Below are positions 3,001 to 19,558 of a DNA stretch of 20,000 nucleotides, one piece after another. Position numbers and translations under genes: made by a program. Positions within the stretch are counted from its first letter, which is position 1. Each line of letters opens with the position of its first letter. Below the pieces are notes generated by a model, which was not told where the DNA came from, did not search any database, and saw nothing but the letters and a program-made list of their open reading frames with translations. Source of the DNA: Fonticula-like sp. SCN 57-25 (lineage: Eukaryota); the NCBI GenBank assembly GCA_001724245.1, contig MEDX01000016.1:60113-80112 (forward strand). Direction: 5' to 3'.

Positions 3001-6000
3001 CTTGGCCGCTCGACGTCAACGGCCGCGGCGCCAGTCAAGGACCCGTCGCGCACCTGCTACGGTTGCCTTAGAAAGTATGTCCATGCGCTCGTTGCGCTGC
3101 TCGGGGACATTGCGCAGGCGGACCACGGCCACGCGGCGTTCCTTGTGGACCGCGACATCATCCAGGAGCTGCTGACGTACAATGTGCGTCGCGGCTCGGC
3201 GCCGATCGACCCGGTCGTGGCGCTCTTCTCGGCGCTTGTGGAGGACAACGAAAGCGCGACGCAGGTCTTCCTCGACGCGGTCACCTCCAGCATCCGCATC
3301 GGGCTGCAGCAGGCGTCGAGCATTGACCTCGGCGAGCTTGTGGGCTACGAGGTCGCGCTGCTGTGCAAGCTCGCGCTCATAGACGACGCCCTCTGGGAGA
3401 TGCGCCTCAAGCACGTCTTCCGGCTGTTCTTTACGGCTCTGCCGCTCTGCAACGAGCAACCGGTCGTGCTCGAGCGCCTGGTCCTGCCGTGCCTCGCCGT
3501 GATCATTCAGCGGAGCACGCTGGACAAGGACGCGGCGGCCACTGCGACTGATGCGCCGTCGTTAACCCCGGCGTCGTTCCCCGCGTGGATGTCGCAGGAC
3601 GACACGTACGCGAGCTGGCTGGCGCGCCGCGCCGCCCAGGCTTCCTTTGGCGGGTCGATGCGAGAAGCCGAGCTTGTTGCCAAGTACTATTGCAGGTGGC
3701 TCTTTACCGTCCGCGCTCGCCGCCGCCGCCTCAGTGGCGCGTCTGCCACGCCCGACGACATGTCTGCGCCGTCATCGCGCTGGCTGGGCCAGCTTTTGCT
3801 CACGCCATTGTCCAAGACGGTTCGCGAGCAGGCGGCCAAGCTCATTGCCGGCCTCGCTTCGTCGTCGCCATCTGTTGCCGTTCGCTTCTTGGACGTCCTG
3901 CGCCGACTGCTACCGCAGATGGCAGGCGCTCGCGAGAATGCTGCTGAGTACTTTGCGCTTCTCAGGCGCTTTGCAGAGCCGCATCGCATGTACCTTGCGT
4001 CCAAGGGCTTTGTTGGCGAACTGTGCGACGCCGTGGCTGGGTCGGTCGCCGAGCTGTCGCGACTCGACGGCGAGGGCATCTACGCAGAGGCGGATCTCTA
4101 CCAAGGGTTTGTGCTGCGCGAGCAGGTTACGCTGCTCGTGTCGCTTGTCGGCGAGGAACACGTCCGCCGCCGCATGCGCAAGCGCGTCAGCGAGCTGTTT
4201 ACGCCCCTGCTCGAGGGCTTCCTCGGACTGCGTGCGCTCGTGACGCAGCGCAGCAAGGTGACTGAAGAGTGCGCCGGCCTCGTCCTGCAGCTTATCCAGT
4301 CACTCTTGCAAGCGTCCGAGGCGGACACGGAGGCATACATCAAGGCTGCCGTCGAGGCGGCTGACCGCATCGTGGCGCGCGCGCCTCGCCCGCAGGGAAC
4401 GCTTAGCCGTACTTCGAGCCTCAGCTCGGGCGACGGCAGCATGCTTGATATCGACGACTGGATGGCGCCAACCATCCGCCGCCGCGCTCGGGTCATTGAG
4501 AGCGCGCGCAAGCTGCAGATTCTGTTTGAGCAGGTGTGCTCGGTGGTCCGGCCCGAAGCCCCCGCCGATGTCATCTACTTTGACCTGGTCAAGGTGGCCA
4601 CCCAGGAGGAGTTTATCCGCGGCTCGATGGTGGAGAACCCGTACTCGCACCTTGACGCCGGGCCGCTCATGCGCGACGTCAAGAACCGCATCTGCAACGA
4701 CCTCGACATGCAGGGCCTGATCGACGACGATAACGGCATGGAGCTGCTCGTCGACGACAAGATCATTGCGCTCGACCTCCCCGTTGACCGTGTTTATCGG
4801 CAGGTGTGGATGCGCGGCCAGGGTCGCGACAGGTCGCGCATGATGATTGTGTACCGCCTTCAGGGCCTGGACGGCGAGGCGAGCGAGGAGCGCGTCGATT
4901 CGCTCCCGGACGAGGGCGCGAACAAGGAAGACCCCGAGGTCGTCTTTGCGCTAACCAAGGTCATTGGTCGCAGCGGCGGCCTTCAGACGGTTCTCGGCGC
5001 GCTCAAGTGGACCAAGGCGCTCGGCGCCAGCCGCGAGCTGCTCGTGGTCCTGCTGCGCCTCTTGTCGTACTGCTCAAACGTGAAGGAGAACCGCGGCCGC
5101 TTGTGGGAGATGCACGCGCTCGGGACGCTTCTCGACTTGCTTACTTTTGCCTCGTCGCACGGCGTCGAGGACTCGCTGCTCACCGTTGTCGAAAGCATTG
5201 TCGCCGAGGCGAATATGCAGACGCAGATGCTGCAAGTACAGAGCACCGCCGACAGCGCCAACCACCTCAAGATCTTTTTGGACAAGATGTCGGCGCAGGC
5301 AGAGACGTCCAACCCTGCGTCTGTCGCGTACCTCACGCGCGTGCTCCCGTTCCTCGTGTACGGCGACGAATCCATCATGGAGGTATGTTTGTTTTCTCGC
5401 TTTTGTCAAATCTAATCTGGGTCGCGTAGATGCTGTACAAGTTCTTTGAGGCGAGCCTGCAGTGGTTCGACTACACTGACGAGTCTTCCACGTACTTTTT
5501 GGACCTCTTTGTGGACATTGCCGAGCACATCCAGCGTGACGCCAACGGCGACGGCCTGCGCACCTTTTTCTTCCGCCGCGGTGTCGTGAGCGGCGTGTGC
5601 ACATTCCTGAAGCTGTCGCGTCCCCGCGACGCCACGTCGGCCGAGGAGTGGGCAAAGCTGGTCGACCTGCACGTGCTGCCGCAAGCGCTGCGCCTGTTGG
5701 GCGCGCTTTGCCGCGGCGCCAACGTCGAGGAGCTCCGTCAACATGTTGTCCTGGAGCACGACGAGGTACTGACCGTGATCCATCAGCTCGAGCAGCGCAC
5801 GTCAGAGCGGCGCGTTGGGTCGCTCGCCGAGACCGTCCTGGACGAAATGGCGGAGACGGACGACGCCCTCGGCGAGCGCGTCAAGGCGATGCGCGATGAG
5901 ACAAAGGCCGACAAGCGCAAGCGCGCAATGGAACAGCGCGAAAAGATGCTCAAGGAACTTGGTTTTGAGCAAACGAATGGCGCCGGCGGCACTGTTCGTA

Positions 6001-7160
6001 TCGTGTCGTCTGCCAAGGTCGCCGACGCGGACAATGTTGACCTTGGCGAGGAAGAAGAGGGCGCCCTGCTGTGCTGCGTGTGCCGCGAAGGCTATCGCCA
6101 CCAGCCGACCGAGTCCTTTTTGATCTACGTTTACGGCAAGCCGGTCACCGTGTCGGTGACTGATCTCCCGATGACCCCCTCTGAGCGGTTTGTGTCGCAC
6201 GTTTCGCACTTTAACGTGATCCACGCGCGCTGCCACGCGTCTGCGATGCAGGCCGACCGCGGCCGCCAGCGCGAGGTATGGGAAGGTGCTTCGCTGCGCA
6301 ATAGCAACACCAAGACCAACTCTGTGATGCCCGTGCACGGCGGGTCTGTGCCGGACGACCGCTACGACCTGCTCGTCGACGCCTTCTTTTTGCGCTCGCT
6401 CCAGATTCTCGGCGGCGGCGCCGTGACCGGGAGCAGCTCTGCCGCCAACCGCTTCAAGCTGACTGTGCAGGACGTGCGCTCGCAGCTCATGCGCTTTGCG
6501 TTCCAGGAGCCGTTCCACACGGACGCGCTCGGCGGCGGCCGCGAGAGCAACATCCAGCTGATTCCCTTCCAGCTGCAGCTCGCGCTGCACCTCTGGGACA
6601 AGCTTCAGCCGGCGGAGCGCACGGCGGCAGAGTCGCTGCTGACGCGCGCCGCGGACGCCGACGCCCTAAAGTCGGCCATCACGCGCGCGATGGAGCCACA
6701 GGACGCGTGCTACGCCCTCGTTCTGACGCTGCTGCTGCGCACCGAGGAGCAGTGGAACGGCGTGCGCATCGCGCTGCTCAAGACGTGCATCGTCGAAGGG
6801 CAGTGCGCGAGCATGGTCAAGGAGGAGGACAGCTCGAGCCTCACGACGCCGACGGCCACCACGCGCGGCATCCTTCTCTTTTACACGCTCGTGTCTCTCT
6901 TCCACTCGGAGGTGTTCAACCAGACTCACAAGGAGGGCGAGGTGTGGCCGGCGCCGCGGCGCCAGCTGCTCAAGGAGGGGTACCGCGACGTGCTGGCGCG
7001 CGTCCGCGGCGTCCTCGAGACGTACGAGGAGGAGCTCGTTCACCTGGAGACGTTCCAAGAGTTCTTTGACGTGGCGGGTGTGTTGGATGACGTGATCAAG
7101 GAGAGTGGGTCAGCCGAAGACTTTGTCAAGGCGGTGGCCACATCGGCGGGTCTCATGTGA
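1..7160 (+). CDS. UBR4: E3 ubiquitin ligase UBR4/p600/BIG/Pushover homolog, 5'-truncated by the window; exons <1-1915, 1964-5382, 5430-7160 (~2354 aa in window)
   Basis: Frame is open from base 1. Motifs: Cys-rich CPRCNRLVTDRHGICRNCHENAFQCRACRNINYE..FLCIDCGFCKY; TQEEFIRGSM..NPYS..GPLMRDVKNRIC..GMELLV..KIIALDL; YRLQGLDGEASE; hemiRING CCVCREGY..SHFNVIHARCH; WEGASLRNSNTKTN; GGGRESNIQLIP. Intron 5383-5429 (GTATGT..CTAAT..TAG, phase 0) joins the two ORFs. A probable in-frame intron lies at 1916-1963. Confidence 0.95.
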
Positions 7161-7334: not shown

Positions 7335-8278
7335 TCAGCCGCTGATCTGCGCGGCGACCTTGTCAAACGCATCAATGAGCTGCTCGATTGTTGGCCTGTC
7401 GGCCGGGTTGAGCGCGAGGCACGCCTTCATGAGGTCGACGAGCGGCGTCGGGTACCTCGGCGTCTTTGGCACGTTGAATGTACCGCTGCACGCCGCCGTG
7501 GCCGTCCCGTCAAACGGCGGCTGCCCGTACATGCACGCGTACAGCGTGCAACCGACCGACCAGATGTCTGACTTTTCCGTGATGCTCGCGCCGAGCGCGC
7601 CCGGCTCAAAAAGCTCTGGCGCGCGGAACGGCGCTGTGCACTGCGACGCGCACATATCCTTGAGCAAAGCGGCCTGTAGCGGCGTGTCGACCGGCGGGCG
7701 AGCAACCGCCACGCTGCCGAGATCGACCAGCACAACCGCGCCGCGGCCGTCCAGCATCACATTCGCGGGCTTGAGGTCGCGGAACGCGTACGGAGGATCG
7801 GAACGGTGAAACGCGCGGATCCCGCGAAGAATGCCGCGGAAGCTCGAGAGGATCGTCGGAAGGGCGTCGGTGGGATCCTGATAGGCGCCGGTCGCAATCC
7901 AATCCTGGAGCGTGCCGCGGCTCATCATCATCGGGAGGAGTAATAGGCCCACGCGGCGGCCATCAACATCAACGATGGCAGAGTCAACAAGGCGAATGAT
8001 GTTTTCTGTGCCTGCAAAGCGCTTGTGCATGTTCACTTCCTGCTCAAAGTCCTGTTCGGGCGGCATTAGCAGGGTGATTAACTGCCACGGGTGGTGCGCA
8101 CCGCTTTGCGCTCGGATATCGCGAGGGAGATCACCTTGAGCGCAAATGTCTCATGCGTCACTATGTCTCGGACATGGTAAACAATCGAGAAGCCTCCTTC
8201 GCCGAGCTGGCTAAGGACCTCTAGGTCGCGGCTGTTGAGCCGAAAGCGCTGCCGAAAGTACGACAGCAGCGCGCCCAT
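7335..8278 (-). CDS. STK16: NAK-family Ser/Thr kinase, STK16/Env7-like; exons 8278-8102, 8051-7335 (297 aa)
   Basis: N-terminal MG (possible myristoylation), LGEGGFSIVY, FALK, alphaC Glu in EQEVNMH, FRDLKPAN, DLGS, ASQCTAPFRAPELF (NAK activation segment), DIWSVGCTLYACMYGQPPF. Intron 8101-8052 (GTGCGC..CTAAT..CAG, 50 nt, phase 0). Confidence 0.88.
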
Positions 8279-8474: not shown

Positions 8475-10109
8475 ATGAGCGGCTCGCGAATGCACCAGAG
8501 AGGGGCGCTTGTGCTTCTCCTGCTATTTTGCGCTGGCGCAGCGGCCGACACGTGCCTACCAGGCTGGTCGGGAGCATCGTGCGATGTCTGCGCCGTTGGA
8601 TATTATGGCTCGACATGTGTCGCATGCCCGAGCTGCGGGCCCGGCGGTTCGTGCAACGATGGCCTCGCGGGAGATGGCGTGTGCGTCTGCCGCCCGCAGT
8701 GGCAATTGGCGGATGGATCGTGCGACAAGTGCGTGTCGAGCATGACGGGCCCCACGTGCAGCGAGTGCGTTGATCCCGCGTACGATCCCGACACGCTTTG
8801 CGTCAAAACAATCAATCCCGATCCCGTTATCATCGGGTGTGTGATTGCCGGCGTTGTCTTTATGTTCGTCCTCATCCTGCTCGGCACGTACCTCATGGGG
8901 CGCCGTCCGACGAGATCTCACGCCAAAAACGAGTTTGCGCCTTCGACCCGCATGACGGTACGCTGCTGCCCATATTCATTTTCCTCTAACGGTCGCGCAG
9001 CTTTCCTTGCGTCGCCATGTGCCTGCCAAGCTGCCACCGGGGACCAGCCCGTCGACCGAGCCGCTTAACAGGGCCAAGACCGCAATGGACCTCGAAAAGG
9101 GCATTTCAGGCCTTAGAGACCCGCCGGCCGCAGTCCAGCTCCAGTCAACAGCCGCCCTTGTCATGGACGAAGAGACGGCCGACCACCAGCTGGTACGCAC
9201 AAATGCCTTTTGCGTTCCATCGCTAACACTGTATTTGCAGTCGCGTGCGGGCTTTGCGCTTGGTGAGCTGAACGACAAGGTTATAAAGGGCCGCTTCCCC
9301 GACGCCAAGGTCGCCGTGCGCACGTATGGCGCCGACCACACGGTGGAGCGCTTCATGGTCGAGGCGTCCATCATGTGGACGCTCGACTCGCATAGAAATG
9401 TGGCGCGGATGGCTGCGTGCGTTCCGTCGGCGCCATTCACGCTCATCCTGCCGCGCTACATGGGCGAGCTGCACAGCTGGCTGCACCACTCGGGCGACAC
9501 TGAGGGTCCACTGGAGCCGCACGTCATCGGCTCCATCGCCATGGGCGTGCTGTCGGGCGTCTCGGCCGTCCACGCGCTCCGCGTCGCGCACCTCGACATC
9601 CAGTCGTCCAACATTCTCCTCGAGATGCCAAAGGACGGCGGCAACGTGCCGACGCCGCTCATCGCCAACTTTGCCTACGCCGCCACAGAGTGCGTAAAGT
9701 CGTGTTTGGTATATTGTTGCTGACGCCAATGCGATTTATTAGCAAGCTGGCGGGGCCCGTGGCTGTGCGCGCCGTGCGCTACGCTGCACCCGAGCTGTTT
9801 ACTTATGCGAGCGCGGGCGCGACGCCGTCTCTCGAGGCCGCCGTCGCGATCGACGTGTACGCTGTCGGGTGCATTTTGTGGGAGGTGAGCGAGCGCGCGA
9901 TTCCGTGGGGCGACACGCCCGACGAGGATATCGAGGCAAAGGTAAAGGGCGGCGCGGTTCTGCCCCCGCTGCAGGAGAGGAGCGGCGGCGCCAACGCGCG
10001 CGTCCGGTCGTGCGTCGAGGCCGCGATCAAGGGCACGGAGAGCTCAGTGCCGGAGGAGCGCCCGTCGGCCAGTGGGATGCTGGCGGATATGATGTATTCG
10101 TTTTCCTAG
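8475..10109 (+). CDS. Single-pass receptor-like (pseudo)kinase: signal peptide, EGF/laminin-EGF-like Cys repeats, TM helix, TKL-like kinase fold; exons 8475-8957, 9001-9192, 9241-9689, 9743-10109 (~496 aa)
   Basis: Signal peptide ALVLLLLFCAGAAA; C.PGWSG.SC..C..GYYG.TC and CNDGLAGDGVCVC; TM VIIGCVIAGVVFMFVLILLGTYLM followed by GRR; kinase motifs VAVR, HLDIQSSNILL, ANFA, RYAAPE, DVYAVGCILWE..IPW, ERPSA. Introns 8958-9000, 9193-9240 and 9690-9742 each have a GT donor, CTAAC/CTGAC branch and AG acceptor and preserve the frame. Alternative start ATG at 8490. Confidence 0.85.
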
Positions 10110-10272: not shown

Positions 10273-11419
10273 TCAAAAATGCACAATACACGTCTCACCA
10301 GGCTGCGCCTGGCACATCAGCACCCTTACGACGGTCTCGACGAGCTGGTCGGCGAGCGAGCGCGCGATGATGCGGTCCTCCCGCTCGGCTCGCTCTGCAA
10401 TCTCCAGCTGGACGCGCAGCGGCCCCAGTTCGTTGTACATGCACACGCGGCGGCTGACAAGGTCGCTATGCCGCTCGCTGTTCGCCTCCATCTCGGCCTC
10501 GAGGGCCTGCAGCTGGCCATCGATCCATGTCAGCTCTGCCTCCACAAACTTTGCCCGCTCGGCGACGAGCGACGGCGGTGCAGTCGGGTACGACGCGGCG
10601 AGCAGCGTGTACGGCGACGCCTGGCTCGACGGCGACAAAAGTTCGCTGCGCGCCGACTGCCATGCGTGCTTGCATCGGTGAAAGGTCTCCCACCAGCGGC
10701 GTCGATAAATGTCGGCCGCCAATGTCGAGGGGTGGCCCGCTTCGTCGTCCGGCTCAATTTCGTGCCACGGGCGGACGGAAAACCGAACCGCCCTGACGCT
10801 CTCGCGATGCCTCGCGTACATGGCGGGGTTTGCGTCGGCAAGGGGAGTAAAAAGCACGTCGGTGCACGAGAGGCGCCGCGCGTCAGCGTTCCTCCACTGC
10901 GGGAAAAACTCGTCAAGAAGCGCCTGCTCGGGGCTAGAGTCGGCATCGTCCCCAATTCCCATGCGAAGCTTTCGAACGCACATGTTGTCATAGATGCGGG
11001 CGGACGGGCTCGCGACAAAGAGGCCGGGATGCGGCGCGTCAGGCCACGTCGGGTCCGGCGAGGCCGTCAGCTCAGGGCGCTCAAACAGGTCGTCCAGGTT
11101 GCGGAGCACCAGCAGGTCGTGGTCAACAAAAACAACCTGTTTTCCTGAAGTTAGAAATGTACACGCACTTGGGCAAAAGTACCTTGCCGACACACTCAAG
11201 AGACCATGCGGCGAGCCGCCCACACTGCCCGTCGACCTGGCGGATCTCGTCGTATACGCGTGCAAGCTGCGTGCGGGATCCGGCTCCGATCGCGTCGCCG
11301 GCCGTCATGCAAATGAGCGGCCGCCTCGTCAACGTCTCCTTCAAGGACGCGCCGAGCACGAGCGCCCCCACTACATCGTCTTCGGTCCTCACCAGCGTCG
11401 CGTACGCCTCGGGCGGCAT
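10273..11419 (-). CDS. Glycogenin-like glycosyltransferase family 8 protein (degenerate) with C-terminal coiled coil; exons 11419-11183, 11136-10273 (~366 aa)
   Basis: EAYATL..GALVLGASLK..TRRPL, WSL...KVVFVDHDLLVLRNLDDLFERPELTASPDPTWPD, GLFVASPS, FF.QW, RPW and RWWE.F follow glycogenin motif order. Intron 11182-11137 (GTACTT..CTAAC..CAG, 46 nt). A possible last intron at 10298-10252 would end the protein at ..QAQPG. Confidence 0.82.
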
Positions 11420-11701
11420 CAGGGGTTCAGTGTTCTCTGTCGCGTTGCGACACAACGACGTCACCCAAAAGCGTCGGGTGATGATGCGACATCTTTTGCA
11501 TATAGCCTCAATGGGACCTTACAGGTGTAAAATAGTAGCTTCAATGCACAAATGGCGCCTTGCTCGACACGAACAGCAAATTGTGGTCTGGGGCGTCATC
11601 TCCACCGCCTCAGGCCCACTTTGCTGTTTGCATGTTGACAAAAATGCGCGATTCTGACCAATCAAAATCGCGACCGACCGGCGCGGCTGTGGTGGCCCAA
11701 C
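11420..11701. promoter_or_regulatory. Divergent promoter, glycogenin-like / adenylate cyclase
   Basis: 282-nt head-to-head gap with CRE-like CGACGTCA (11456-11463) and CCAAT box TGACCAATCA (11655-11664). Confidence 0.6.
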
Positions 11702-14700
11702 ATGACCACCCGCCGAGCGAAAGCGAAAGATGCGACGCTGGGTACGGCATTCGGGGGAGGAGAGGGCTCGCTTGTTGTAAAATGGAGCTGACATGGTGAT
11801 TTTTATAGTGATGCCGGCCGAGGAGGACGGCATCCGGTTCATCTCGCTAAATCGGACGTTTCCGTCCAAGACGCTGCGTCTGACCGATTTTCCTGCCATG
11901 TTGGGGCGGCAGCCGGTGCCGAAAGACACGGATCCCTCTCGAGTGCTCAGCTTTTCGAGCAAGGTGGTGTCGCGCCAACACGCTGAGCTTTTTATCCGCG
12001 ATAACAAGCTTCTTATTCGCGACACAAAGAGCTCCACGGGCACCTTTCTCAAGTCGCAGCGGCTAGCTCCGCGCGGCGAAACAAGCCAACCCTTTGAGAT
12101 CAACGACGCGGAAGTTATTCGTCTCGGAGAGGACTACACGTCGGACGGCGAGCTCCACCAGTGCATCAAGATGGTGGTGTACTTGCCACCGAGTATGAAG
12201 GTGCCCACGGCCGACATCGACCCGTCTTACTCGAGCAACACCTTCACCGTCCCGGTCGAGCGCCATCTTCTCGAGACTGTGTACGCTCCTCGCCAGCCGT
12301 CCGGAATTGAAAGCAAGGCGTCCCCAACAAAGGCCGAGTCGCCGGCTGGGTTCCCCCGCGCGAGGCACGCTTCGGACGTGATCACGGCCAATGGCGACGA
12401 AGAGACGGAGCGTGCCTATACGAAATCATTGCCGGTACGCCGCCTTTCGCTACTCTTTAGTATGCCAACACGCCCTAGATTGATATGCGCGTCTATACGC
12501 GAGATGGCGACTATTGCGTAGTTTCCGTGGTGCTGGGCGCGTCCACATCTCAAATCCTAGTGCAGGTGCAGGCCGCCTGGCAGAATGCGTCGGGCGCGAA
12601 TGTCCAGCTGAACGACGCGCGTCGCCTCTACATTGTGCGGAACGGCATGAGCGGTGCGCACAGTTGTTTTTTCTGTTTTCGTTTGCTGACACAAGCCAAA
12701 GAGCGCGAGCTTTCTCCGAGCGAGTTCCCCGGCCGCATCCAGCTTCAGCTGTTGTCCCAGTTTGGCTACGATGTCGCGAGCGGGCTCATGGAGGCATGCG
12801 CCGAGGACCACTCGTACATGTTCCGCTTTATTGCGAGCGACTACCCTGAGGCGCCGTCGGAGGACTTTGTGCTGGCAGGCGACTCGACCGTGGCGGACCT
12901 CTCTGGGCGGAACCTCGTCGCGCCGCCCACGTCCCTGGTGGACGCGGCCAAGGCGGGTTCTCTGCTCTCGCTCGACATTTCGAGCAACCCGTCGCTCTAC
13001 TTGGACGACGCGCTCGTCAAGTCGTGCGCATCGACGCTCAAGCAGCTGACGGCCAACGACAACAACTTGACGGAGCTCCCAGCTAGCATCGGCTGGCTCG
13101 GCAGCCTGGTGTCGCTGCGCGCGGCCCGCAACCGGCTTCATTCGCTACCGTCGCTGTCGAACTTGGAGCAGCTCCGCTTTCTTGACCTGCGCAGGAACTC
13201 GCTCTCGACGCTGCCGGACGACCTGAGCGCGCTCAAGCAGCTAGCCGTGCTCAATGTTGCGAGCAACGCGTTTGATGCGATTCCCGCGAGCGCGACGCGG
13301 CTAGGCACGCTCATTGAGGCCGACTTTTCGTTCAATTCCCTCAAGACGCTGCCGGCCTCTTTTGACGGGTGGACAGGGTCGCTCCGGTCGCTGTTGGTGG
13401 CGGGCAATAGCCTCGCCGACTTGCCAAAGTCGATCGCGACTCTCAAGAGCCTCGTCGAGCTGGATATTCGGCACAATGCCATCACGGACGTCTCCTTGCT
13501 CAAGGGACTGCGCTCGCTCACGTTGCTACTCGCGGACGACAACCGCATCACTACGGCGTTTGCCGTGTCGTCGCTGGACGCATACAGCTTTTCTCACAAC
13601 CCGATTAGCTCTGTCGAATGCATATTGTCGCTGGCGCCGACGCCGCCGTCCGTGTCGCCTGGCGACATGGAGCCGCCAAGCAAGCCGCTTGCGCGGTCGC
13701 GGGCACAGAAGCGCCTGCCGAGTTCCAAGCGGACATCGACCATTACTGCGTCGACGCATTCCAGCCAGGGCACGTCGTCGACGCTCTCGAGTTTGTCAAG
13801 CGGGGGCTCTGCGTCGAGCCTGTCGGCGAGCTCGACGCTTGCGAACCCGTCGATGCACCGCGCGCGCTCGCTGCTCCAGCTTGACCGGCTGCACCTGCGG
13901 AACGAATCGTCGCCGATGCTCGTGCACTCGCCGCTTTCGACTGCGCGCTTCTCCAACTCGTTTAGCTTTATCAGCTCGCTGTCGATGGCGCACGGCGTTT
14001 TGCGCGAGTTTCCCGAGGCGCTCTTCCAGATCAGCACGCTCCTGCAGCTCGACTTTAGCTACAACCGCATTTCGGCGTTTAGCGTGCCAAAGGCGTGCGC
14101 GTCAACGTCGCAGCTGCAGATCCTCAACTTGTCGCACAACCGCCTGACGGCACTACCTGCGTCAATCGACGCGCTGACTCACCTGGCGTCGCTCGACGTG
14201 AGCGACAACCAGCTGGCGGCACTGCCGGCGTGCCTGTGGACGCTGCCGCTGACGACGCTCAACGCGTCCGTGAACGCGCTCACGGCCTTCCCCGAGCCAC
14301 CTCTTTCCACATCAAACATCTCAATGTCGACGCCGTCATCGTCGGCAAGCTCGTTCGCCTCATGGGCCATCGTCGACTCGCTGGCGCACCTTTTGCTGTC
14401 GTTCAACCGCTTTACGGGAGCCAGCCTGGCGCCGCTCGCGCACCTGACAAACGTTGAGCTGCTATCGGTGAGCCAGAACCCGCTGCAGGGCGACCTACCC
14501 GCGTGGGTCGGGTCACTGGGCGGGTCGCTCGAGGCGCTGCACATGTCACACTGCGAGCTGACGTCGGCACCGGACGATGTGCTTGACCGCCTCCGCGCGC
14601 TGCGCATCCTGGACCTGTCGTGCAACCGCCTGACCGTGCTTCCGGCGGCGCTCGCCAAGGTCAAGTCGCTGCAGTCGGTGGACGTGCACGACAATGCGCT

Positions 14701-17016
14701 AAAGTATGACGTGATGAACTGGTCCGACGGCTGGAACTGGAACTGGAACGTGGAGCTGCGCCACCTCGACTTGTCGTACAACTCATCGTTGTTGATTGTG
14801 GCGAGCAAGTTTGGCGCGCTCGAGGGCTTTGCCGCATGCGAGCGGCTCGAGTTCCTAGGGCTTTCCGGCGTGCAACTCAAGGCCGGCACCGCAGTCCCCG
14901 TCGCGCTCAAGCGCCACGGCCGCGTGCGCCGGCAGCAGGCGTCACGCACGGTGCGCTTTGCGACGGCCAACTCGCCCTGGACGTCGTCGTCGACGACCAT
15001 CTGGGACGCGTCCGTGCCGCACTTTCGCCGGTCGCAGACGGAGCACTTTTTCGCCGTCATCGATTCGACCGACGCGACGCTGGCGCGCTTCCTCGCCGAC
15101 CGCCTCCCGATCGTCTTTGCCGCCGAGCTCGCGCGCCTTTCTGAGAATTTGACCGCGCTCGCGGCGCGCCGCACATTCCTCCTGCTCAACGACGAAGTGT
15201 GCAACTTTCCGCCGAACGCGCCGCACAGCGCCTCGGCCGTCGTCGCGTACCTCCGTGGTGACTACCTTGTACTCGGCCACGTTGGCGGCGCGCGTGCACT
15301 TCTTGTCTCGCGCCGCGAGCCGGCATCGCTTCCGACGCAGTACAATGACCACACACCGTCGTCACGCAGCGAGGCGCGCCGCATGATCCAAGCGGGCGGT
15401 TGCCTTGACCGCAACTCGTCGCTGCGTACTGGCGACGTCGAAGTGTCGGCGGTCGGTCTGTCGCGCGCTCCTTCCGAGTCGGACGCCAGCGTCGCTTCGC
15501 TCGACTCGAATGCTGCGCCGGGCTCGCACCTGCACGAGCTTCGCAGCTCGCGCGCCTTTGGTATGGCGAGCCTCGTTCCGATCATTAATGCAAACCCATT
15601 TGTCGTCGAGCTGCATGTGGACGCGGCGACCGACGACCTGCTCGTGCTCGCCAGCCAGGAGTTGTGGGACCACGTGTCGGATGGTGAGGTATCGTCGACG
15701 TGCCGCTTGGCGATGGCGACGACGCACGCGGACCCGGACCGCGCACTCGCGACCGACGAAGCGTGCGCGCGCGTGGCGTCGGCGGTTCGCGACCTGGCAA
15801 TCGCGCACGGCGCCAAGGACGAGCTCGCCGTGACGGTGATTTCGCTGCGGCGTCTCGGCCTTGCTTCGCTTCCTCCGAGCGGGAGCGGCAGCAGCGGCAG
15901 CGCGCAGATGCTCAAGCCGTCGCCGTCGCTGAATGTCGACAAGGCGCCGATCGGCCGCGTGGCGCTTGTCTTCACCGACATTAAGGGATCGACGTCGCTG
16001 TGGGAGCGCGACGCGATTGCGATGCACGACGCGATCCTCGTGCACAACCGGATCATGCGCGAGCTGCTCGCCGAAGTTGGCGGGTACGAGGTCAAGACGG
16101 AAGGCGATGCATTCATGCTCGCCTTTTGGAGCGTGCGGGACGCGCTCGAGTGGTGCACGCGCGTTCAGATGGCGCTGCTCGAGGAGCCCTCGTGGCCCGC
16201 CGCCGTGCTCGCTGCGCCCGTCGGCCTCGAGCGCCGCGGCCCCGACGGCGTGCTCCTCTATCGCGGCGTGTCCGTCCGCATGGGCATCCACGTGGGTGCA
16301 CCGGTCGCGGAGCCGGACCCGACGACCGGCCGCATGGACTACTTTGGGCCGGTCGTGAACCGCGCAGCGCGCGTGTGCTCGGCAGCCGACGGCGGCCAAA
16401 TCTTTGTCTCGATGGACGCGTGGGAGGAGGCGGAGGATGGCCTTGATGAGCTCGCGGCGCGCAACGTAACGGTGTACGCGCGCGACATTGGCGAGTACGT
16501 CTTGAAGGGCCTCGAGACGCCGCAGCACCTCTGGGTTGTGTACCCGAACGCGGTGGCGGAGCGCGACGCGTTTGCGGTTGTTGGCGGCGGCACAAAGGAG
16601 GAGAAGCTTGATTTAACCAACTATTACACGAGCATGCCCGCATCAGAAGTCGCCATCGAGCGGTGGCCGTGCATCCACGCCACAGACGGGCTGCCCAAGG
16701 AGGCTGCAAAGTGCGATTTAATTTTTAATGGTTTTTGCTGACGTATCTTAGGCGAGGGAGGCTTATCCTCACGGCGGGTTACATTTGCTTCCTGCCAAAG
16801 GTCAAGAGCTTTTTGAACAAGAACAAGGAGCGCGACTGGGTTGTCCGCCTGGCGGACGTGCGCGGCGTAAAGGTGGAGAGCTCTATCCAAGGGTTTGGCC
16901 CGGGCATCCGCGTGCAGGTCGGCAACGACTCGTTTTTGTTTGTGCTGCTGGGGACGGACGCTCGTGACGTGAGCGATCGCCTTACAAAGGCCTGCCAGGC
17001 GCTCAAGGAATTGTGA
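11702..17016 (+). CDS. CYR1: Fungal-type (Cyr1-like) adenylate cyclase with architecture FHA-RA-LRR-PP2C-like-class III cyclase-GRAM; exons 11702-11741, 11809-12434, 12479-12653, 12702-16710, 16752-17016 (~1704 aa)
   Basis: Cyclase motifs VFTDIKGSTSLWE, GYEVKTEGDAFM, RGVSVRMGIHVG, RMDYFGPVVNRAARV..ADGGQI. About 20 LRRs including the Cyr1 hallmark LKYDVMNWSDGWNWNWN. PP2C-like SRAFG/LVLASQELWD/VRDLAIAHG. RA-like MRVYTRDG..ERELSPSEFP. Four canonical introns (11742-11808, 12435-12478, 12654-12701, 16711-16751) join the ORFs in frame. Confidence 0.9.
11826..12185 (+). other. FHA domain (SLMAP/Far9/Dma-like) at the N-terminus of the adenylate cyclase
   Basis: MLGRQ, FSSKVVSRQHA, IRDTKSSTGTFL..QRL, EVIRLGEDY, HQCIKM. 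The phosphothreonine-binding G-R and S-x-x-H residues are present. Boundaries are approximate. Confidence 0.88.
16610..17005 (+). other. GRAM (PH-like) domain at the C-terminus of the adenylate cyclase, split by intron 16711-16751
   Basis: Spliced sequence MPASEVAIERWPC..KRGRLILTAGYICF..WVVRLADVRGVK..PGIRVQV..SFLFV plus a terminal helix matches the GRAM pattern LP..E.....F.C...GRLYLT..YICF...IP..DI..I.K. Boundaries are approximate. Confidence 0.75.
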
Positions 17017-17237
17017 TTCAATTTACTACCTTGCGAGCGGTTGTACTTTTATACCATTTTCTTTCTTTTTGGGTCTGCCCTTTTGTAGTACAGCAAGCAT
17101 CTATATCTACACGCCAATATACAACTTTACGGTTTGCCACTTTTTAAAAGACCCGAAAAGACACGTGTGATGCATTCGTTTATGGGATAGGGAGATGGTA
17201 CGGCCAAAAATGTACAAATTTAATCACCTTACTTTAG

Positions 17238-19558
17238 CTATGATGCGGGCGCGCCATCCGCCGGCTTGAGCGTCGTCTCCGGCGCCGGCTTGGTCGTCGT
17301 CTCGGGCTCGGGCCTCTTCCAGGCCGCGTCGACAATGTCCGCGTATGTGGCGCGCTCCGGGAACGGCCTGGCGCCGAGGAGCTCGACCATGTCCTCCTTG
17401 CTGAGCACCTCGCGGTCGAGCAGCCGCTTTGCAACAGCCTCGACGTGGTCCTTGTGCTTTGTGAGCAGCTCGCGGGTGCGCGTGCGGGCCTTTTCGACCA
17501 TCTCGCGCGCCTCCTTGTCGATAAGCCGCGCGGTCGCGTCGGCGTACGGCTTGACAAACGACTGGTCGTCCTGCTGGAAGCTGACGTGGCCAACGGCAGG
17601 GCTCATGCCGAGCGCGACGATCTGCTGGTACGCGAGCTTGGTGATGCGCTGCAGGTCGTCGTGGGCGCCCGTCGTGATGCGGTTGAAAAAGATCTCTTCC
17701 GACACGCGGCCGCCGAGCATGACGCACATGCGGTCCTGCAGCTGCGACTTTGTATAAATGTTTTGCTCCCTCGGCAGGTACTGGGCGTATCCGAGCGCCG
17801 CCGAGCCGCGTGGGATGATGCTGACCTTGAGCAGCGGGTCGGCAAACTGGAGGAACCACCCGGCCACGGCGTGACCGGCCTCGTGGTACGCGACGGTGCG
17901 CTTCTCCTCGGGCGACAGCAGGCGCGTCTTCTTTTCCAGGCCGCCAATGACACGCTCAATGGCCATCTCAAAGTGAGCAAGGCCGACCTCGGTGGCGCCG
18001 TGGCGCGCGGCAATAAGCGCGGCCTCGTTGCAGACGTTGGCAATGTCCGCGCCGGCAAAGCCGGGGGTCAGCGTCGCGAGGCGCTTGGCAATGGCGTCGG
18101 GCGCCTCGGTCGACGCGAGCTTGATGGGCGACAGGTGTACCTTGAAGATGGCGTAGCGGCCCTTAAGGTCGGGCTTGTCGATCGTAACCTGTCGGTCAAA
18201 GCGGCCGGGGCGCTTCAGCGCCGCGTCCAGCACGTCCGGCCGGTTCGTGCCGGCGAGCACAATGACGTGGTTGTCTGTGTCAAAGCCGTCCATCTCAACA
18301 AGCAGCTGGTTCAGCGTATTCTCACGCTCGTCGTTGCTGCCAAACTGGTTCTTGCGGCCGCGCATCTTGCCAATCGCGTCAATCTCGTCGATAAAGACAA
18401 TGCACGGCGCGTGCTTCTTGGCCGTCGCAAAAAGGTCGCGCACGCGCGAAGAGCCGACACCAACAAACATCTCGTTAAACTCGGAGCCGGAAACGGACAG
18501 GAACGGCACGCCAGCTTCGCCAGCGGTCGCCTTGGCAAGCAGCTGCAATTGCACGTGAGCGCAGAGTAAAATACAAGAGCGCGCGTACCGTCTTTCCCGT
18601 GCCGGGAGGGCCGCTGAGGATGGCACCGCGCGGGATCTTGGCACCGAGCGCCTCATACTTTGTGGGGTCCTTCAAAAAGTGGACGAGCTCCATGATCTCC
18701 TCCTTGGCCTCGTCGCACCCGGCGACGTCCGCGAACCGGACCTTGGCCTCGTTCTCGAGGTTGTACAGCTTGGCTTTCGACTTGCCCACGTTAAAGAGAT
18801 TCGCGCCGCCGCCACCAGACTGCTTCATTTGGTTGATGCCCGCGCGGTTAAAGTAGACGAGAGCCGCGATGAGCAGGACGGTCGGGCTGATGGCCCACAA
18901 AAGCTGAGAAAGGTGGCCTTCCTCCGCGTACGTTACAGGGACAAATAGGCTCGTCTCAATGCCGCGTGCCTACACAATTCGTAAGATAAGAAAGTACGTT
19001 GGATGTGCGGCGTACGTGCTGGGCCTCTTCGAGGCGGCGCTCAAAGGCTTCGAGGCTGCCGATGTGGAAATAGTATTGGCGGTCAGCACTGAGGAGGCCG
19101 CCCCGCTTGAGGTGAACGCGGACAAAACGCCTATTTATAACCTCCAGTCGCTCCACCTCGTCACGGTCGAGCATCATTTCCTTAAACTCTTTCCATGTCG
19201 TTTCGCGCTCGGGGTTGCCGCTCGCGAGGTAAAGTCCGGCAAATGCGAGCGATGACCAGAGGAACATGTTGCGCGCGGAGCGGAACTGCGGGTTATTCTG
19301 CATCTGAGTAAAGTCAATGCCCTTTCCGGCCTCGGCAGCGCCCTTTTGCGAGGCGCCACCAGCAGGCCCAGCCGCTCCCGGCTTGGGCGCCGCATCGCCG
19401 TTCGCGAGGAACCGCCGGCCCACCAGAGGGAGGCGCAAGGCGCTCACCCGGGGAGCCGCAGCAACTCTAAATAAAAATAAAATAAGAAGCACAAACGTGA
19501 GTCAAAGAGCGAGAAAGCAGCCAATGCTAAATAGTGCGCACCTCGCGAATCGCCACAT
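17238..19558 (-). CDS. AFG3: Mitochondrial m-AAA (FtsH-family) metalloprotease, AFG3/AFG3L2-like; exons 19558-19542, 19466-19016, 18969-18589, 18542-17238 (~717 aa)
   Basis: Arg/Ala-rich presequence, two TM segments flanking [31 protein letters not shown], Walker A GPPGTGKT, Walker [36 protein letters not shown] Zn motif, [18 protein letters not shown]. Introns 19541-19467, 19015-18970, 18588-18543. Confidence 0.95.

What the first reader, a model, noticed from the sequence alone, without database searches (positions are those of the whole stretch)
11702..17016. Cyr1-type adenylate cyclase with an N-terminal FHA and a C-terminal GRAM domain
Seen: three ORFs and a short first exon join in frame through canonical introns into FHA-RA-LRR-PP2C-cyclase-GRAM. 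The metal-binding Asps (FTD, EGD), the adenine-specifying Lys/Asp (VKTE, MDYFG) and the Asn/Arg pair (NRAAR) are intact. Known: Dikarya Cyr1 has a G-alpha-binding N-terminal region, then RA, LRR, PP2C, cyclase and a CAP/Srv2-binding tail. Inference: both terminal modules are replaced here, giving a cyclase that could read phosphothreonine, Ras and membrane-lipid inputs. I do not know this architecture as described, but cannot exclude it.
Basis: partly seen in the sequence, partly recalled or inferred. Interest (0 to 1): 0.85.

Follow-up and report, generated by a model that had tools for sequence, protein, structure and literature searches.

The report
Adenylate cyclase with FHA and GRAM-like ends
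An uncultured, fungus-related microbe carries a Ras-type adenylate cyclase gene that has gained a phosphothreonine-reading FHA domain at the front and a probable membrane-binding GRAM-like domain at the back, a combination not seen in any relative examined.

Summary
The gene model holds at the sequence level. Four exons (11702-17016, + strand) join through three short GT..AG introns of 67, 44 and 41 nt into one 1720-codon frame.

Pfam finds FHA, RA, LRRs, a degenerate PP2C and a class III cyclase above threshold. All six catalytic cyclase residues are intact. The C-terminal "GRAM" is only sub-threshold: 16.9-19.6 bits against a cut-off of 23.6. A language-model lead and the sequence pattern support it.

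Codon-position GC, strain variants, a 2-nt indel inside intron 3, and the lack of any ATG in the last exon all favour a single gene. No RNA data exist, because the contig comes from a metagenome.

The FHA is of the fungal Dma1 (FHA-RING ligase) type. None of 136 Pfam-annotated cyclase relatives carries FHA or GRAM. None of 263-266 relatives matched in local searches with the window's own termini.

The protein lacks the conserved C-terminal domain of fungal Cyr1. It branches, on a very long branch, outside the Dikarya+Mucoromycota+Zoopagomycota clade, beside relatives that also lack that domain. FHA and GRAM therefore look like lineage-specific additions rather than replacements.

Verdict: a new variant of a known kind, with moderate interest.

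The parts
11420..11701 (.). Intergenic region shared with the divergent glycogenin-like gene; presumed promoter and 5' UTR
   Evidence: The glycogenin-like gene on the minus strand starts at the ATG at 11419. Its residues 2-64 align to glycogenin-1 residues 3-64 and its later part matches at E 4.8e-19. No codon-position GC signal at 11500-11650.
11702..11741 (+). Exon 1: ATG plus 13 codons and one base. The least certain part of the model.
   Evidence: The ATG is preceded by an in-frame stop. It joins exon 2 in frame. There is no homology support.
11742..11808 (+). Intron 1, 67 nt
   Evidence: GTACGG donor, GCTGAC branch-like site, T-rich tract, TAG acceptor; GC 0.49.
11809..12434 (+). Exon 2: FHA domain (Pfam core 11934-12128) and a linker
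   Evidence: Pfam FHA E 1e-10. Nearest longer proteins are 8 Dma1-type FHA-RING ligases, 36-49% identity in the best local alignment, and they share the SKVVSR-H-E and DTKSS-GTF blocks. The AF2 core (about residues 55-130) has block-mean pLDDT 64-90. All top Foldseek PDB matches are FHA domains, the best being the SLMAP FHA at E 1.8e-5. GC3 0.74.
12435..12478 (+). Intron 2, 44 nt
   Evidence: GTACGC..CCTAG. The acceptor lies 2 codons before the first residue of the RA_3 match. Contigs from four other runs span it (table 8: X4 12059-12530, X2 12418-12672, X5 12423-12633, X6 12387-12537).
12485..12832 (+). Ras-association domain (in exon 3, which spans 12479-16710)
   Evidence: Pfam RA_3 E 2.7e-11, residues 3-118 of the exon 3 ORF, profile positions 1-93 of 94.
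12968..14713 (+). Leucine-rich repeat region, with a Ser/Thr-rich insert at about 13664-13978
   Evidence: LRR_8 E 3.5e-33 and LRR_4 E 1.8e-28. 12 LRR-like motifs by regular expression. The 105-residue insert is 37% Ser+Thr.
15026..15823 (+). PP2C-like domain, degenerate at its metal-binding motifs
   Evidence: Pfam PP2C E 9.7e-25. The alignment to rice PP2C50 (5ZCG) shows D-STDA in place of DGHGG, GGAR in place of GDSR, FGM in place of IGD, SQELWD in place of SDGLWD, and DE in place of DN.
15941..16534 (+). Class III adenylate cyclase catalytic domain
   Evidence: Pfam Guanylate_cyc E 5.6e-25. PDB 1FX4 and 1FX2 at E 7.5e-24 and 7.5e-23, with the metal Asp, Lys/Asp and Asn/Arg columns conserved.
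16634..16710 (+). End of exon 3: proposed first strand(s) of the GRAM-like domain
   Evidence: About 26 residues lie upstream of the GRL motif, which is the length the unmatched first ~30 positions of the Pfam GRAM profile need. This piece alone gave no Pfam match. 3 of the 4 listed strain variants at 16592-16648 are synonymous in this frame.
16711..16751 (+). Intron 3, 41 nt, with a length polymorphism
   Evidence: GTGCGA..TGCTGAC..CTTAG; GC 0.32. Contigs of 3 of the 4 runs laid carry a TT insertion after 16721 (table 4).
16752..17016 (+). Exon 4: main part of the GRAM-like (PH-fold) domain, plus the stop codon
   Evidence: Pfam GRAM at 16.9-19.6 bits against a cut-off of 23.6. ESM Atlas ranks 1 and 3 are GRAM clusters (0.89, 0.86), and the other named eukaryotic rows are PH-like families. 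No ATG in this ORF. GC3 0.78.
17017..17237 (.). AT-rich 3' region between two convergent genes
   Evidence: GC 0.38. The minus-strand m-AAA/FtsH-type protease ORF begins at 17238.

Best explanation
One four-exon gene of an uncultured, fungus-related eukaryote encodes a 1720-residue Cyr1-type adenylate cyclase. Its domain order is FHA, RA, LRR, PP2C-like, class III cyclase, GRAM-like.

Shown. The cyclase domain keeps all six residues that a homodimeric class III enzyme needs. The PP2C domain has lost several metal-binding positions. The FHA belongs to the Dma1 subfamily of phosphothreonine readers. The conserved C-terminal domain of fungal Cyr1 is absent.

Inferred mechanism. As in yeast Cyr1, Ras-GTP on a membrane binds the RA domain and brings two cyclase domains together. 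Here the C-terminal GRAM-like PH-fold module gives an additional or alternative membrane anchor, in place of the fungal dimerisation/CAP-binding tail. The N-terminal FHA docks the enzyme on a phosphothreonine mark. That mark could be on a partner protein or on the enzyme's own Ser/Thr-rich insert in the LRR region. cAMP production would then be gated by a protein kinase.

FHA and GRAM are most likely additions made in this lineage to a bare RA-LRR-PP2C-cyclase.
For: Single gene.
- The spliced frame is open for 1720 codons.
- The GC3 pattern and its phase switches fit the exons.
- Intron length and signals match the UBR4 intron, which is proven by a split Pfam domain.
- The exon 4 ORF has no ATG, so it cannot start a protein.
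- The FHA ORF would end at 12521, after the first ATG of the cyclase ORF at 12485, leaving no room for a second promoter.
- The 5' side is bounded by a divergent glycogenin-like gene that starts at 11419.
- Contigs from four other runs span both junctions, and L001 spans junction 3, so this is not an assembly chimera.
- A TT indel sits inside intron 3 in 3 of 4 runs. Only splicing gives the same protein from both alleles.
- Of 40 listed strain variants, 30 are at codon position 3 and 30 are synonymous.

Domains.

No fungal C-terminal domain. An HMM built from 119 fungal tails hits five test fungi at E 3e-32 to 2e-55. In this protein it matches only profile positions 21-55, which is the end of the cyclase domain.

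Position. The protein lies outside a clade of 18 named fungi (SH-aLRT 96), with Capsaspora and with unnamed relatives whose chains end 15-51 residues after the cyclase and show no fungal tail domain.

Published background. Cyr1 arose in the opisthokont ancestor, and the fungal tail that binds CAP was a later gain (PMC12002173, passages). GRAM domains help membrane interaction in Dictyostelium GbpC/GbpD (PMC11988041, one passage).
Against: - No transcript evidence of any kind: no RNA run holds the stretch.
- GRAM is below Pfam's gathering score. No relative of exon 4 was found among longer proteins or in the PDB by sequence.
- The Atlas scores of 0.89 and 0.86 are below the tool's own 0.9 mark for more than a lead.
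- Many in-frame GT..AG pairs exist by chance. One rival for junction 2 (12460-12503, also 44 nt, GTATGC donor) is not excluded, although it would remove the first strand of the RA match.
- Only one listed strain variant lies in exon 2 and none in exon 4, so purifying selection is shown for exon 3 only.
- The protein sits on a very long branch (3.3-4.1 changes per column), so its place outside the fungal clade may be an artefact.
- Ras, phosphothreonine and lipid binding are all untested.
- The PP2C may still be active: a preprint reports activity for the non-canonical Cac1 PP2C (PMC12710969, abstract only).
Confidence: 0.68

Rival explanations
1. The cyclase gene ends at the stop at 16739-16741 with intron 3 not removed. 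Exon 4 is untranslated 3' sequence, or a decayed remnant, that only resembles GRAM by chance. The protein would then be FHA-RA-LRR-PP2C-cyclase.
For: GRAM is below the Pfam cut-off. There are no homologues of exon 4. AF2 on exon 4 alone gave pLDDT 45. No RNA data exist. Long chance ORFs are common in this GC-rich DNA.
Against: Exon 4 shows the same codon-position GC pattern as exon 3: 0.59/0.40/0.78 against 0.63/0.49/0.82. GC falls to 0.38 only after 17016. The intron has a donor, a branch-like site and an acceptor like the other introns, and a GC of 0.32. The GRAM-like match begins right at the acceptor, and the piece that completes the domain has the right length upstream of the donor. Atlas ranks 1 and 3 are GRAM clusters.
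Confidence: 0.12
2. Two genes. A small FHA protein (about 11811-12521) lies next to a separate Cyr1-type cyclase that starts at the ATG at 12485.
For: Both ORFs have their own ATG. No relative shows an FHA fused to a cyclase. The relatives P0192 and P0220 carry only 25 and 78 residues before the RA match. No RNA data exist.
Against: The two ORFs would overlap by 37 nt on the same strand, with no promoter or terminator space. A 44-nt intron with a good donor and acceptor joins them in frame exactly 2 codons before the RA domain. Intron GC is lower than that of the flanking exons.
Confidence: 0.12
3. The contig is a metagenomic assembly chimera that joins pieces of different genomes.
For: The window comes from a metagenome.
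Against: Contigs assembled from four other runs, in four different studies, cover both junctions with 0-6 differences (table 8). L001, from another assembly, matches 16329-17777 with 3 mismatches. Composition and intron style are uniform across the window.
Confidence: 0.02

Closest known systems
Fungal Cyr1/Cac1 adenylate cyclase (S. cerevisiae Cyr1, C. neoformans Cac1)
   Same: It has the same RA-LRR-PP2C-class III cyclase core in the same order. The best database hits are fungal Cyr1 proteins (E down to 6.5e-151, 28-37% identity). The PP2C is degenerate, as reported for Cyr1 (PMC12002173).
   Different: There is no PF08509 G-alpha-binding region and no conserved fungal C-terminal (CAP-binding/dimerisation) domain. 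It carries an FHA in front and a GRAM-like module behind. It lies on a very long branch outside the sampled fungal clade.
Holozoan Cyr1 (Capsaspora owczarzaki CAOG_04748, P0205) and the unnamed relatives P0220 and P0222
   Same: They have RA-LRR-PP2C-cyclase without the fungal C-terminal domain. Like the window's protein, they lie outside the clade of named fungi in the tree.
   Different: These proteins end 12-27 residues after the cyclase and have no FHA.
Dma1-type FHA-RING ubiquitin ligases of fungi (same class as CHFR/RNF8)
   Same: The FHA domain is closest to theirs. All 8 hits among longer proteins have this architecture, and they share the SKVVSR-H-E and DTKSS-GTF blocks.
   Different: There is no RING finger here. 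The FHA is followed by a cyclase.
FHA-gated nucleotide cyclases and phosphatases: Bdellovibrio DgcB (FHA-GGDEF) and Arabidopsis KAPP (FHA-PP2C)
   Same: In both, an FHA domain sits on the same chain as a nucleotide cyclase or a PP2C. Both FHA structures appear among the fold matches (6HC1 rank 11, 1MZK rank 21). That the FHA recruits or gates the enzyme through a phosphopeptide is my recollection of the literature, beyond the entry titles.
   Different: They use different catalytic families and different kingdoms. No homology outside the FHA fold is implied.
Dictyostelium GbpC/GbpD
   Same: A GRAM domain sits inside a cyclic-nucleotide signalling protein, where it aids membrane interaction (PMC11988041, passage).
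   Different: Those proteins bind cGMP rather than make cAMP, and their GRAM lies between two cyclic-nucleotide-binding domains.

Membership tests
Cyr1-type adenylate cyclase | Ras-association domain N-terminal to the LRRs | tested here: met
   Pfam RA_3 E 2.7e-11, profile positions 1-93 of 94.
Cyr1-type adenylate cyclase | LRR region followed by a PP2C-like domain | tested here: met
   LRR_8 E 3.5e-33; PP2C E 9.7e-25.
Cyr1-type adenylate cyclase | C-terminal class III cyclase domain with two metal Asp, the Lys/Asp adenine pair and the Asn/Arg pair | tested here: met
   Guanylate_cyc E 5.6e-25. The relevant columns are conserved in the alignment with 1FX2 and 1FX4. Assigning roles to the residues rests on established class III cyclase knowledge.
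Cyr1-type adenylate cyclase | Fungal C-terminal dimerisation/CAP-binding domain | tested here: not met
   An HMM built from 119 fungal tails matches only profile positions 21-55 (the end of the cyclase domain). The five fungal test proteins score E 3e-32 to 2e-55. This feature defines fungal Cyr1 only; Capsaspora Cyr1 lacks it too.
Cyr1-type adenylate cyclase | G-alpha-binding region (PF08509) | tested here: not met
   Not among the Pfam hits at E up to 0.1 on any exon. Among the hits it occurs only in some named Ascomycota and in unnamed metagenome proteins.
Cyr1-type adenylate cyclase | Activation by Ras-GTP | not testable with these tools
   Needs biochemistry or genetics.
FHA domain (PF00498), Dma1 subfamily | Profile match above the curated cut-off | tested here: met
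   42.3 bits against a cut-off of 20.7.
FHA domain (PF00498), Dma1 subfamily | FHA beta-sandwich fold | tested here: met
   AF2 core pLDDT 64-90. All top PDB matches are FHA domains. The N-terminal strands are of low confidence.
FHA domain (PF00498), Dma1 subfamily | Phosphothreonine-contacting Arg, Ser and His | tested here: inconclusive
   The Ser-Arg-x-His block is invariant with the Dma1-type proteins. The loop Arg is ambiguous: either the R aligned by MAFFT or the GR ten residues later. That segment has pLDDT below 50. The roles of these residues are from general FHA knowledge.
GRAM domain (PF02893) | Profile match above the curated cut-off | tested here: not met
   16.9 bits (exon 4 alone) and 19.6 bits (ORF with intron-coded residues), against a cut-off of 23.6. 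The whole spliced domain could not be given to the profile tool.
GRAM domain (PF02893) | PH-like fold | tested here: inconclusive
   AF2 on exon 4 alone gave pLDDT 45. The Atlas lead points to GRAM and PH-like clusters at 0.81-0.89.
GRAM domain (PF02893) | Lipid or membrane binding | not testable with these tools
   Needs lipid overlay or localisation experiments.

The most novel reading that the evidence does not exclude
A deep-branching relative of fungi has rebuilt the ancestral opisthokont Ras-cyclase into a three-input coincidence detector. cAMP is made only where Ras-GTP, a kinase-written phosphothreonine mark (read by a Dma1-derived FHA) and a particular membrane lipid (read by a C-terminal GRAM domain) meet. 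The GRAM domain does the membrane-clustering and dimerising job that the CAP-binding tail does in true fungi. This would be an independent solution to the same problem and a window on Cyr1 before the fungal tail arose.
Probability: 0.25. Interest if true: 0.65.

Novelty: new variant of a known kind. Interest (0 to 1): 0.5.

Why it matters
Cyr1 is the central cAMP source of fungi and a signal integrator in pathogens. How its non-catalytic parts control dimerisation is still debated.

A natural version without the CAP-binding tail, carrying a lipid-binding-type module and a phosphothreonine reader instead, offers a comparative test of two questions. The first is what the tail is for. The second is whether membrane clustering alone is enough for activation.

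It also adds a data point on Cyr1 outside the well-sampled fungal clades. The limits are plain: domain shuffling in eukaryotic signalling proteins is common, the organism is uncultured, there is no expression evidence, and one of the two new domains is only a sub-threshold call.

Tried and rejected
- RNA evidence: no RNA holder was listed for the stretch, so splicing could not be checked.
No whole genome is held for this window.
- Four remote calls failed at first. They were repeated successfully.
- Metagenome scan with the cyclase exon: only one same-organism fragment (L001) and two irrelevant 13-residue matches, so there were no related loci for comparing intron positions.
- Exon 4 against longer proteins: 85 candidates, none at E up to 0.1.
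- Exon 4 against PDB sequences: one chance hit at E 0.5.
- The 46 residues before intron 3 gave no Pfam match at E up to 10.
- AF2 of exon 4 alone: pLDDT 45, not usable, so no fold search was run on it.
- Complex prediction with the two halves of the proposed GRAM domain as separate chains: no answer, score 0.00. This is not evidence either way.
- The spliced protein itself could not be given to the Pfam, folding or database tools, because only unaltered window sequence is accepted. The full C-terminal domain was therefore never scored as one piece.
- The top-scoring relatives of the PP2C+cyclase piece turned out to be multi-cyclase proteins with 3-4 cyclase domains, two of them from diplonemids. 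They are not orthologues.
- Placing the organism: the Cyr1 trees leave it unresolved on a very long branch. I had no searches left to try a conserved marker such as the FtsH-type protease.

Full report
WHAT IS THERE

The window is GC-rich (0.58-0.67) and eukaryotic. It comes from a metagenome: only DNA runs from bioreactor, wastewater, aquatic, soil and 'fungus metagenome' samples hold it, and no whole genome is held.

On the + strand, three long ORFs and a short ATG-bearing piece lie at 11702-17016. Reading the DNA and joining the pieces in a script gives this model:
- exon 1, 11702-11741
- intron 1, 67 nt
- exon 2, 11809-12434
- intron 2, 44 nt
- exon 3, 12479-16710
- intron 3, 41 nt
- exon 4, 16752-17016

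The result is one 1720-codon frame with a single terminal stop.

IS THE MODEL MORE THAN CHANCE?

Being in frame is weak evidence here. With introns of 30-300 nt I counted 30 in-frame, stop-free GT..AG pairs for junction 2 and 58 for junction 3. The support comes from other observations.

(a) The neighbouring UBR4-like gene has a 45-nt GTATGT..TAG intron that splits one Pfam domain exactly: profile 1-266, then 266-809. Introns of 41-67 nt with GT(A/G)YG donors and CTRAY-like branch sites are therefore the norm in this genome.

(b) GC at codon position 3 is 0.69, 0.74, 0.82 and 0.78 in the four exons. The introns have GC of 0.49, 0.55 and 0.32, and the 3' flank 0.38. The phase of the GC3 signal changes at both large junctions as predicted.

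(c) The exon 4 ORF contains no ATG, so it can only be translated as a downstream exon.

(d) The FHA ORF would stop at 12521, after the first ATG of the cyclase ORF at 12485. Two separate genes would overlap on one strand.

(e) The acceptor of intron 2 lies two codons before the first residue of the RA match, which covers profile positions 1-93 of 94.

(f) Upstream, a glycogenin-like gene on the minus strand starts at 11419 (PDB glycogenin-1 E 4.8e-19, N-terminus aligned from residue 3). Downstream, an FtsH/m-AAA-type protease on the minus strand ends at 17238. The gene is thus boxed in between 11420 and 17237.

(g) Contigs from four other runs span both junctions (table 8), and L001 from another assembly spans junction 3 with 3 mismatches in 1449 bases. 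Assembly chimerism is excluded.

(h) Contigs of 3 of the 4 runs carry a TT insertion inside intron 3 (table 4). A 2-nt length difference there is harmless only if the segment is spliced out.

(i) One run holds a strain about 1% different. Of its 40 listed differences (20 more were not shown), 30 are at codon position 3 and 30 are synonymous in the predicted frame. However, 39 of the 40 lie in exon 3, one in exon 2 and none in exon 4.

No RNA run holds the stretch. The joins are therefore inferred, not observed. Exon 1 is the weakest part; translation could start at the ATG at 11811 instead.

DOMAINS

Pfam gives FHA (E 1e-10), RA_3 (2.7e-11), several LRR families (LRR_8 3.5e-33), PP2C (9.7e-25) and Guanylate_cyc (5.6e-25). 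All are above their curated cut-offs.

Cyclase. The domain is closest in the PDB to the trypanosome receptor-type cyclases 1FX4 and 1FX2 (E 7.5e-24 and 7.5e-23). The columns holding the two metal Asp, the Lys/Asp pair and the Asn/Arg pair are conserved. By established class III rules this is a homodimeric adenylate cyclase with two complete active sites.

PP2C. The domain is degenerate. Against rice PP2C50 it shows D-STDA for DGHGG, GGAR for GDSR, FGM for IGD, SQELWD for SDGLWD and DE for DN. This fits the statement that Cyr1 PP2C domains lack catalytic residues (PMC12002173, passages). A preprint nonetheless reports activity for the non-canonical Cac1 PP2C (PMC12710969, abstract), so inactivity is not certain.

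FHA. Among longer proteins, the only 8 hits are fungal FHA-RING ligases of the Dma1 type, with 36-49% identity in the best local alignment. The blocks SKVVSR-H-E and DTKSS-GTF are invariant across the alignment. An AF2 model made with that alignment has a confident core (about residues 55-130, block-mean pLDDT 64-90). All top Foldseek matches are FHA domains: SLMAP in complex with phospho-MST2 (E 1.8e-5, 39% identity), Far9, RNF8, Rad53 FHA1, KAPP and Bdellovibrio DgcB.

GRAM. This is the weak link. Exon 4 alone scores 16.9 bits (E 5.9e-3), and the ORF including intron-coded residues scores 19.6 bits (E 8.7e-4), against a cut-off of 23.6. The match starts at profile position 27-31 of 112, right at the acceptor. 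The roughly 26 residues before the donor are the right length to supply the missing first part, but alone they match nothing. The ESM Atlas puts GRAM clusters at ranks 1 and 3 (0.89, 0.86), and the other named eukaryotic rows are PH-like families. All of these scores are below the tool's 0.9 mark. AF2 on exon 4 alone failed (pLDDT 45), and the two-chain test gave no answer. I could not hand the spliced domain to any profile or folding tool. I rate GRAM or a GRAM-like PH fold as probable, not shown.

RELATIVES AND ARCHITECTURE

The cyclase exon finds 1130 proteins at E up to 0.001. The best 119 others are fungal Cyr1-type proteins (Mucoromycota, Glomeromycota, Mortierellomycota, Zoopagomycota, Ascomycota, Basidiomycota) at only 28-37% identity. 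None lists PF00498 or PF02893.

A HMMER search of 1.84 billion representatives with the PP2C+cyclase piece gave 21511 hits, and 150 were listed. I Pfam-scanned 17 of the 144 new ones. Six were multi-cyclase proteins, two of them diplonemid by name. Eleven were Cyr1-like, including Capsaspora, Auricularia, Atractiella, Tulasnella, Coemansia and Smittium. None has FHA or GRAM.

In local searches, the window's own N-terminal 222 and C-terminal 135 residues found nothing better than E 0.95 and 1.6 among 263 relatives. A Dma1-type FHA HMM found nothing better than E 0.46 among 266.

Full-text searches found no paper with adenylate cyclase + FHA + GRAM domain. Searches returned nothing relevant. These checks do not cover chytrids, blastoclads, rozellids, aphelids or nucleariids by name, and no InterPro architecture search was possible.

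WHAT WAS 'REPLACED'?

An HMM built from the tails of 119 fungal Cyr1 proteins detects a conserved domain of about 135 residues in the five test fungi (E 3e-32 to 2e-55). In the window's protein it matches only the end of the cyclase domain (profile positions 21-55). The same holds for Capsaspora Cyr1, which ends 12 residues after the cyclase.

Of the 67 further relatives with PP2C plus cyclase, 54 have this tail. P0220 and P0222 lack it and end 15-27 residues after the cyclase.

In a tree of 23 proteins, the 18 named fungi form a clade (SH-aLRT 96) that excludes the window's protein, P0217, P0220/P0222 and Capsaspora. An earlier 25-protein tree left the window's protein unresolved at the base. 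Its end branch is 3.3-4.1 changes per column, so the placement is unsure.

Together with the published view that the dimerisation/CAP-binding tail was a later fungal gain (PMC12002173), the economical reading is this. The lineage never had the fungal tail or the ascomycete G-alpha region, and it added FHA and GRAM to a bare RA-LRR-PP2C-cyclase.

HOW IT LIKELY WORKS

Shown: an intact catalytic domain, a Ras-association domain, a Dma1-type FHA and no fungal tail.

Inferred:
- Ras-GTP recruits and clusters the enzyme at a membrane, as in yeast.
- The GRAM-like module adds lipid-dependent anchoring that could stand in for the missing dimerising tail.
- The FHA ties activity or location to a Thr phosphorylation. 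The mark could be on a partner, or on the protein's own 105-residue insert in the LRR region, which is 37% Ser/Thr. In the second case the FHA would act as an intramolecular latch.
- Precedents for an FHA on the same chain as a nucleotide cyclase or a PP2C exist in Bdellovibrio DgcB and Arabidopsis KAPP. Both are among the fold matches; their mechanisms are recalled, not tested here.

VERDICT

This is a real and probably single gene, a Cyr1-type adenylate cyclase with a new pair of terminal domains. I rate it a new variant of a known kind. I put the six-domain single-gene reading at about 0.68; the GRAM label and the splicing remain to be proven. Interest is moderate.

Noticed in passing
window 1-7160 (+): A large UBR4-type E3 ligase gene runs off the 5' end of the window. 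Its E3_UbLigase_R4 domain is split by a 45-nt intron at 5385-5429. From memory, UBR4 is not a typical Dikarya gene; if so, this hints at an early-branching or non-fungal host. I did not check this.
   Followed up: partly
window 10273-11419 (-): A glycogenin-like GT8 gene, divergent from the cyclase gene. Pfam found nothing at E up to 1, yet PDB glycogenin-1 matches at E 4.8e-19 and the N-terminus aligns from residue 3. An intron probably lies between the two ORFs, around 11123-11304.
   Followed up: partly
window 7335-8150 (-) and 8956-10109 (+): There are two protein-kinase-like ORFs (Pkinase E 2.2e-28 and 9e-10). Their gene models were not worked out.
   Followed up: no
window 17238-19501 (-): An FtsH/m-AAA-type protease (Peptidase_M41 E 6.8e-64, AAA, FtsH_ext) is convergent with the cyclase gene. 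It has at least one intron, because its parts lie in separate ORFs. It would be a good marker for placing the organism.
   Followed up: no
P0124-P0129 (one search hits): The highest-scoring relatives of the cyclase domain are proteins with 3-4 tandem class III cyclase domains. Two of them come from the diplonemids Diplonema japonicum and Namystynia karyoxenos.
   Followed up: partly
P0220, P0222, P0217 (one search hits): These are unnamed Cyr1-like proteins from public assemblies. They end shortly after the cyclase domain and branch outside the named fungi together with the window's protein. They may mark further unsampled lineages that have the ancestral architecture.
   Followed up: partly
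window 13664-13978 (+): A 105-residue insert that is 37% Ser/Thr interrupts the LRR region. It is a possible phosphorylation target for the protein's own FHA, which is speculation.
   Followed up: no
window 16721: Intron 3 varies in length between samples, 41 or 43 nt, through a TT insertion in a T run.
   Followed up: yes
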